Below, piece after piece: positions 63,038-63,383 of a DNA stretch of 64,000 bases. The position numbers and the translations under genes are program-made. The notes under the pieces are model-generated. The model saw only the letters and a list, made by a program, of their open reading frames with translations. It did no database searches and was not told the DNA's origin. The stretch comes from Escherichia coli (lineage in GTDB: Bacteria > Pseudomonadota > Gammaproteobacteria > Enterobacterales > Enterobacteriaceae). Location: assembly GCF_045037415.1 (NCBI RefSeq), contig NZ_CP173438.1; one strand, written 5' to 3'. Position 1 is the stretch's first letter. Every line of letters starts with the position of its first letter.

Positions 63038-63235
63038 TTATAATTGCGGGCGTTTTTGGATTAACACTCCACCCGTATTTTTTAAACCTCTGTCAGCTAT
63101 ACCTTCACTAAATAAGACATCGATACGCCCTTTACTTTTATCGTGATACAGAATACTGCATGAGATACACCTTATACCCTCTTTGGATTTACGAAAATCT
63201 AACCAATAACGACCATCATAAAATACCCACTCCAC
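63038..63235 (-). CDS. hypothetical small protein, possibly 3' part of a frameshifted gene
   Basis: 65-codon ORF beginning at GTG; a 34-codon ATG-initiated ORF (63239..63340, MIKIDEIDFF...) lies immediately upstream in another frame. Confidence 0.3.
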   Translation of the reverse strand: MEWVFYDGRYWLDFRKSKEGIRCISCSILYHDKSKGRIDVLFSEGIADRGLKNTGGVLIQKRPQL

Positions 63236-63383
63236 ACCTGTTTTATATTAATTATCCAATCATTATAACCTGTTGGTTTTTTCCTAATAGTTCAGTAACT
63301 TCGGACTCTGAACATCCTTCGAAAGCGAAAAAATCTATTTCATCAATTTTTATCATATTCAATAATCCATTATTTATGACATT

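What the first reader, a model, noticed from the sequence alone, without database searches (positions are those of the whole stretch)
63038..63340. Small ORF in the islet looks frameshifted
An ATG-initiated 34-codon ORF (MIKIDEIDFFAFEGCSESEVTELLGKNQQVIMIG, 63239-63340, minus strand) ends in TAA, and the annotated 65-codon ORF continues in another frame from a GTG 3 bp further on. Together they would encode a protein of about 100 aa, which suggests a frameshifted or decaying gene, or a programmed shift.
Basis: seen in the sequence. Interest (0 to 1): 0.35.

Follow-up and report, generated by a model that had tools for sequence, protein, structure and literature searches.

The report
Orphan gene broken by two deletions
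This is an ordinary dead gene: a small E. coli-specific gene of unknown function, intact in many other strains, was knocked out here by the loss of one A from each of two short A-runs, and RefSeq already labels it "frameshifted".

Summary
The geometry differs from what was reported. ORF1 runs 63356→63252, not 63340→63239. It is separated from the GTG ORF (63235→63038) by 16 nt, not 3.

There are two lesions, not one. Each is a 1-bp deletion in an A-run: A7→A6 at 63277-63282 and A5→A4 at 63241-63244. Between them the ancestral frame is the third frame. Adding one A back to each run gives a protein identical to an intact allele in other E. coli strains.

The gene lies in a 1-kb, 34%-GC islet between metH and yjbB, present in 1132 of 5426 complete E. 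coli genomes. The window's double-deletion allele occurs in 543 of them, including named ST131 strains. PGAP annotates it as a frameshifted pseudogene. The first A-run varies in length across strains (A6, A7, A8), so it is an indel hot spot.

Programmed frameshifting is rejected. It would need two shifts, there is no stimulatory RNA structure, and intact homologues are single ORFs. The protein family is tiny and matches no known family, so its function is unknown.

The parts
63038..63356 (-). Whole pseudogene (319 bp): remnant of a 321-bp, 106-codon orphan gene, from ATG 63356-63354 to the ancestral stop TAA 63040-63038
   Evidence: Alignment to intact alleles. PGAP marks a 319-bp 'frameshifted' pseudogene in the identical genome SK1144. 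Adding one A to each run restores a 106-aa ORF.
63252..63356 (-). ORF1: 34 codons plus a premature TAA (63254-63252). The first 26 residues (MIKIDEIDFFAFEGCSESEVTELLGK) match the intact protein; NQQVIMIG* is out-of-frame read-through.
63277..63282 (-). Lesion 1: an A6 run that is A7 in intact alleles (GGAAAAAAACC to GGAAAAAACC). This is the inactivating 1-bp deletion. The run is also found as A8 in other strains.
63241..63244 (-). Lesion 2: an A4 run that is A5 in intact alleles (ATATAAAAACAGG to ATATAAAACAGG). It lies downstream of the premature stop.
63038..63235 (-). ORF2: a 65-codon GTG ORF that corresponds to residues 42-106 of the intact protein, including the invariant RCIxC motif. It is probably not translated on its own: the only AGG sits 1 nt before the GTG.
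   Evidence: The translation statement is inference from the sequence.
62546..62995 (-). Intact 149-aa hydrophobic partner gene, 42 nt downstream of the pseudogene. It matches no known family and is 40% identical to the partner in the distant orthologous cassette L014.
63388..63407 (-). Terminator-like G+C hairpin followed by a T-run, just after the metH stop at the upstream edge of the islet
62412..63425 (.). AT-rich islet (34% GC against 51% for the window). It replaces about 195 bp of the K-12 metH-yjbB intergenic region and the last codons of metH.

Best explanation
The feature is a recently inactivated gene (pseudogene). The ancestral gene encoded a 106-aa soluble protein of unknown function, carried with a 149-aa membrane-protein gene on a horizontally acquired 1-kb AT-rich islet between metH and yjbB.

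In the lineage of this window, replication slippage removed one A from an A7 run at codons 26-27. That shifts the frame and stops translation after 34 codons. A second slippage then removed one A from an A5 run 38 nt further on, in sequence that was already untranslated.

Shown here: the two deletions, the intact alleles in other strains, and the length variation of the first run. Inferred: the order of the two events, the slippage mechanism, and that the 65-codon GTG remnant is not expressed.
For: Intact 321-bp CDSs at the same locus in AR_0017, TCM3e1, SC455 and FDAARGOS_1254. The alignment shows exactly two 1-bp gaps, both in A-runs. Adding one A to each run gives a protein identical to the FDAARGOS_1254 allele, dN = 0.

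PGAP annotates the same sequence as a 'frameshifted' pseudogene. The window allele (A6/A4) matches exactly in 543 complete genomes from many laboratories, so it is not a sequencing error. A6/A5 occurs in 6 genomes and A7/A4 in none, which fits the A7 deletion coming first. The premature stop at 63254-63252 lies between the two runs.

Run 1 also occurs as A8 on at least three local SNP backgrounds. The three fetched single-deletion (A6/A5) genomes sit on a different SNP background from the window. Together these indicate a recurrent hot spot. IS1 has inserted at two different sites in the islet in genomes with the window haplotype, which indicates continuing decay.

The gene is real. Homologues at 40-45% identity have 31 invariant columns, including R-C-I-x-C. 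dN/dS among intact E. coli alleles is about 0.1-0.5.
Against: The first run in the window forms an in-phase A_AAA_AAC heptamer (GGA AAA AAC), a classical -1 slippery motif, so a trace of frame restoration at site 1 cannot be excluded from sequence alone.

The order of the two deletions is inferred. The three fetched A6/A5 genomes are on a different haplotype from the window, so they may be an independent event rather than the intermediate.

Some A6 and A8 calls come from one set of wild-animal isolate assemblies (A21, A22, A25, A32, A42). At least one of these, A42, has a broken metH annotation, so a few calls could be assembly errors.
Confidence: 0.93

Rival explanations
1. Programmed ribosomal frameshifting: the ribosome slips -1 at A_AAA_AAC (63282-63276) and again at A_AAA (63245-63241), producing a full-length protein with a single K27N change.
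For: The first site is an in-phase X_XXY_YYZ heptamer. Two -1 slips would reconstitute the ancestral sequence almost exactly (sequence reading).
Against: Two independent low-efficiency events would be needed. The second site has only a tetranucleotide, not a heptamer. There is no stable structure downstream of either site: z = +0.86, -1.03 and +1.60 against shuffles.

About half of the genomes carrying the islet, and the two homologues seen in intact form (P0010, P0011), encode one uninterrupted ORF. Other strains have A8 instead, which would need the opposite shift. The configuration is therefore not conserved.
Confidence: 0.02
2. Phase-variable (contingency) switch: the A-run at codons 26-27 toggles the gene on and off by slipped-strand mispairing, and the window shows the OFF state.
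For: Run 1 occurs as A6, A7 and A8 in natural isolates, on several SNP backgrounds. A distant orthologue (L014) carries a 1-bp frameshift in a G-run at the homologous codon position.
Against: A7 is short for a classical contingency tract (from general knowledge, these are usually 8-9 or more). All 543 genomes with the window allele are fixed at A6/A4 with no revertants seen. The second deletion makes simple reversion impossible. L014 is a single metagenomic contig. Indels fall in homopolymers anyway, so recurrence is expected for any dispensable gene.
Confidence: 0.04
3. Two genuinely separate small genes (34 aa and 65 aa), or a sequencing or assembly artefact at homopolymers.
For: Gene callers have occasionally called the 34-aa piece as a protein (P0014). 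Homopolymer errors are common in long-read assemblies.
Against: Intact alleles and homologues cover both pieces in one ORF. The 12 residues between the lesions (KPTGYNDWIINI) are encoded only in the third frame. The identical allele is present in 543 independent complete genomes.
Confidence: 0.01

Closest known systems
RefSeq/PGAP pseudogene 'hypothetical protein, frameshifted' (e.g. DAECLI1_RS22930 in E. coli SK1144); intact forms WP_000590025.1, WP_000590023.1, WP_052925210.1, WP_097169673.1
   Same: The sequence is 100% identical to the window over the whole islet. Same locus between metH and yjbB, and the same call of a frameshifted CDS.
   Different: Nothing differs. This report adds the anatomy (two A-run deletions) and the allele frequencies.
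Homopolymer-indel pseudogenes in clonal pathogen lineages (ordinary reductive gene decay)
   Same: Single-base deletions in mononucleotide runs, a premature stop, a secondary lesion in the untranslated remnant, later IS insertions, and fixation in a clone.
   Different: None in kind. The gene affected is a very rare orphan with no known function.
Programmed -1 frameshift sites such as dnaX (A_AAA_AAG) and the IS1 insAB' A-run
   Same: An in-phase A-rich slippery heptamer at the first lesion (sequence reading).
   Different: No stimulatory hairpin or correctly spaced SD-like element. A second shift is required. The shifted arrangement is not conserved, and the ancestral state is a single ORF.
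Phase-variable contingency genes with homopolymeric tracts (Haemophilus, Neisseria, Campylobacter type)
   Same: A length-polymorphic mononucleotide run near the 5' end of a coding region, with ON and OFF lengths in the population.
   Different: The run is only 7 nt. The OFF state is fixed in a whole clone and locked by a second deletion. No switching was measured.

Membership tests
Frameshift pseudogene | An intact orthologous allele exists at the same locus | tested here: met
   321-bp CDS between metH and the 149-aa gene in four fetched genomes. The 82-nt intact consensus matches exactly in 166 genomes.
Frameshift pseudogene | The lesion is an indel whose length is not a multiple of three, and it creates a premature stop | tested here: met
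   Two 1-bp deletions. Stop after 34 codons. Repairing both in silico restores 106 aa.
Frameshift pseudogene | The lesion is real, not a sequencing error | tested here: met
   The same A6/A4 allele is found in 543 complete genomes. Reads for the window's own strain were not available.
Programmed -1 ribosomal frameshift | A slippery heptamer X_XXY_YYZ in phase at every required shift | tested here: not met
   Site 1 has A_AAA_AAC in phase. Site 2 has only A_AAA followed by C.
Programmed -1 ribosomal frameshift | A stimulatory downstream RNA structure | tested here: not met
   MFE z-scores of +0.86, -1.03 and +1.60 against shuffles.
Programmed -1 ribosomal frameshift | The two-frame arrangement is conserved among homologues | tested here: not met
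   Intact E. coli and E. fergusonii alleles, P0010 and P0011 are single ORFs.
Transcriptional slippage recoding | A long A or T run (about 9 or more, from general knowledge) | tested here: not met
   The runs are A6 and A4 in the window.
Phase-variable contingency locus | The tract length varies between ON and OFF states among isolates | tested here: inconclusive
   A6, A7 and A8 all occur. However, 543 genomes of one allele are uniformly A6/A4, and variation within a lineage was not measurable.
Phase-variable contingency locus | Reversibility at high frequency | not testable with these tools
   This needs fluctuation or deep-sequencing assays. In the window, two insertions would be required.
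Any curated protein family (Pfam, NCBIfam, PADLOC, PDB sequences) | A significant profile match for the intact 106-aa protein or for the 149-aa partner | tested here: not met
   Nothing above the cut-offs. The AF2 model was too poor for a fold search, with pLDDT 46.6.

The most novel reading that the evidence does not exclude
The mononucleotide run at codons 26-27 of this orphan gene is a selected ON/OFF switch. It is A7 in E. coli, and a G-run sits at the same position in a distant orthologue. On this reading, ExPEC lineages such as the one in this window have locked the switch OFF because losing the small protein, while keeping its membrane partner, is advantageous.
Probability: 0.05. Interest if true: 0.4.

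Novelty: already known. Interest (0 to 1): 0.08.

Why it matters
It matters little. The result shows that a pair of small ORFs that could be taken for a recoding site is a plain pseudogene, already flagged by RefSeq. Annotators should treat 63038-63356 as one frameshifted CDS rather than two genes.

There are two minor points of use. The double A-run deletion is a compact, clone-wide marker: 543 of the complete genomes share it, including named ST131 strains. The intact gene pair is an extremely rare, uncharacterised accessory cassette, found in Escherichia, one Serratia fonticola genome and two metagenomic lineages.

Tried and rejected
1. Pfam, NCBIfam, PADLOC and PDB-sequence searches of the intact 106-aa protein and the 149-aa partner found nothing significant.

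2. An exhaustive HMMER search of 1.84 billion representatives gave only three true remote relatives (P0010-P0012). The two long hits, P0015 and P0016, are repetitive proteins with repeat-inflated scores and were rejected.

3. The genome-contig scan with the family alignment found no relative in about 100,000 species-representative genomes. The hot-spot idea could therefore not be sampled across species.

4. The apparently divergent partner proteins P0037, P0040 and P0041 turned out to be frameshift-garbled E. coli sequences.

5. AlphaFold2 on the 6-sequence alignment gave mean pLDDT 46.6, so no fold search was run.

6. An Rfam scan of the islet gave only a sub-threshold chance hit.

7. A literature search on metH and yjbB found nothing about this islet.

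8. Programmed frameshifting, transcriptional slippage, two separate genes and sequencing artefact were considered and rejected, as set out under the rival explanations.

Full report
**Observation**

On the minus strand, downstream of the metH stop and a terminator-like hairpin (63407-63388), there is an ATG ORF of 34 codons. A 65-codon GTG ORF follows at 63235→63038 in a different frame. The gap between the TAA (63254-63252) and the GTG (63235) is 16 nt, not 3. The three-frame translation showed that a third frame carries "KKPTGYNDWIINIK" between the two ORFs. That was the first sign that one shift would not be enough.

**Context**

The ORFs sit in a roughly 1-kb islet (62412-63425) with 34% GC, against 51% for the window. 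The islet lies between metH and yjbB. Compared with K-12, it replaces about 195 bp of intergenic DNA and the last codons of metH. It holds two minus-strand genes: the broken small gene and an intact 149-aa hydrophobic protein at 62995→62546. The islet is present in 1132 of 5426 complete E. coli genomes, always on the chromosome.

**What the feature is**

In a genome 100% identical to the window (SK1144), PGAP annotates one 319-bp CDS as "hypothetical protein, frameshifted". Genomes that are 97-99% identical carry an intact 321-bp CDS of 106 aa at the same place.

The alignment shows exactly two length differences. In the window, GGAAAAAAACC has become GGAAAAAACC (A7→A6, 63277-63282) and ATATAAAAACAGG has become ATATAAAACAGG (A5→A4, 63241-63244); coordinates are. 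The first deletion shifts the frame after residue 26 and leads to TAA eight codons later. The second deletion lies downstream of that stop. Adding one A to each run gives a protein identical to the intact allele of FDAARGOS_1254 (dN = 0). No other damage is present, so the inactivation is recent.

**Population data**

Exact-match queries of 80-83 nt spanning both runs gave these counts in complete E. coli genomes:

| Run 1 / run 2 | Genomes with an exact match |
|---|---|
| A6/A4 (window allele) | 543, including named O25b:H4-ST131 strains |
| A7/A5 (intact consensus) | 166, plus several hundred one-SNP variants not checked individually |
| A6/A5 | 6 |
| A7/A4 | 0 |
| A8/A5 | 1, plus 6 more with one SNP |

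Four of the A8 genomes were verified by sequence, on three local SNP backgrounds. All four are annotated "frameshifted".

The three fetched A6/A5 genomes are on a different SNP background from the window. The A7→A6 loss may therefore have occurred more than once, and the inferred order (A7 run first, A5 run second) rests mainly on the absence of A7/A4 and on the position of the stop codon.

One caveat applies. Several A6 and A8 calls come from one set of wild-animal isolate assemblies, and at least one of them (A42) has a broken metH annotation. However, FDAARGOS_144 and A21 share the same A6/A5 allele, and SF-166 and A22 share the same A8 allele, each pair coming from independent sources. That argues most of these calls are real.

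In some genomes with the window haplotype, IS1 has since inserted into the pseudogene (Ecol_AZ153) or into the 149-aa partner (EC5931). This fits an islet in decay.

**Is it a real gene?**

Yes. Homologues are very rare but convincing. They comprise E. coli, E. fergusonii (89% identity), one Serratia fonticola protein (P0011) and two metagenomic lineages (P0010, P0012), the remote ones at 40-45% identity. There are 31 invariant columns, including F-E-G, W…D-G…D-F and R-C-I-x-C. dN/dS among intact E. coli alleles is about 0.1-0.5, based on few substitutions.

The cassette of small gene plus membrane partner recurs at the same metH-yjbB position in a GC-richer relative (L014), where the partner is 40% identical to the window's (E = 6e-34). 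In L010 the small gene stands alone upstream of yjbB. In Serratia it lies between P2-like tail genes and dapA.

No Pfam, NCBIfam, PADLOC or PDB-sequence match exists. The AlphaFold2 model was unreliable (pLDDT 46.6). No relative was found in about 100,000 species-representative genomes. Function is unknown. All that can be said is that it is a soluble protein of about 12 kDa, predicted to be β-rich, with an invariant CxxC motif and usually paired with a small multi-pass membrane protein.

**Programmed recoding**

The window's first run forms an in-phase A_AAA_AAC heptamer. Two successive -1 slips would recreate the ancestral protein with only a K27N change. That is why the idea deserved a test. 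It fails on every other criterion:

- The second site has only A_AAA, not a heptamer.
- RNA downstream of both sites folds no better than shuffled sequence (z = +0.86, -1.03, +1.60).
- The two-frame arrangement is not conserved: intact alleles and homologues are single ORFs.
- Other strains carry A8, which would need the opposite shift.

Transcriptional slippage is implausible on runs of 6 and 4. This last point rests on general knowledge, not on a test here.

**Residual curiosity**

The L014 orthologue is itself frameshifted by one base in a G-run (CTGGGGGGCGCC) at the codon position that corresponds to E. coli's A7 run. Together with the A6/A7/A8 polymorphism, this allows a hot-spot or phase-variation reading. 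It is a single metagenomic contig, though. Homopolymers are where indels fall anyway, and the window's allele is fixed and locked by a second deletion. I give that reading about 5%.

**Verdict**

This is an ordinary pseudogene, already annotated as such.

Noticed in passing
L014:202-535 (Logan contig SRR29344327_48386): A distant orthologous cassette at the same metH-yjbB locus in a GC-richer relative. Its small gene is also frameshifted by 1 bp, in a G-run (CTGGGGGGCGCC; G5 would be in frame), at the codon position matching E. coli's A7 run.
   Followed up: partly
L019:434-1131 and L020:751-1448 (E. coli Ecol_AZ153, EC5931): IS1 has inserted at two different positions in the islet in genomes carrying the window haplotype: once in the small pseudogene and once in the 149-aa partner, leaving a 117-aa remnant. 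One search listed 11 such genomes among its top hits.
   Followed up: partly
L013:1-5327 (Serratia fonticola GCA_031158655.1): The only homologue outside Escherichia in a named genome lies right after P2/HP1-like phage tail genes and before dapA, with no membrane partner. This hints that the small gene travels as phage cargo.
   Followed up: no
L010:133-834 (ENA metagenome contig): An intact 111-aa homologue (43% identity) lies directly upstream of yjbB with no 149-aa partner. The two islet genes are therefore not always linked.
   Followed up: no
window 63357: The base immediately 5' of the ATG is T in the window and SK1144 but C in all seven other haplotypes compared. It is a lineage-specific change in the spacer between ribosome-binding site and start codon, of unknown effect.
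   Followed up: no
window 63416-63426: Homology to K-12 ends inside the last codons of metH. The window's protein ends ...GYDAE and K-12's ends in D. The islet brings its own terminator-like hairpin for metH at 63407-63388.
   Followed up: partly
L015:1-69 (E. coli A42): In this assembly metH itself is annotated as an incomplete pseudogene. This suggests reduced assembly accuracy in that set of wild-animal isolate genomes, which is a caveat for some A6 and A8 run-length calls.
   Followed up: no
window 62546-62995: The 149-aa partner remains intact in the window even though the small gene is dead. It is a basic (pI 9.2), hydrophobic orphan with at least two strong transmembrane stretches and no family match.
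   Followed up: partly
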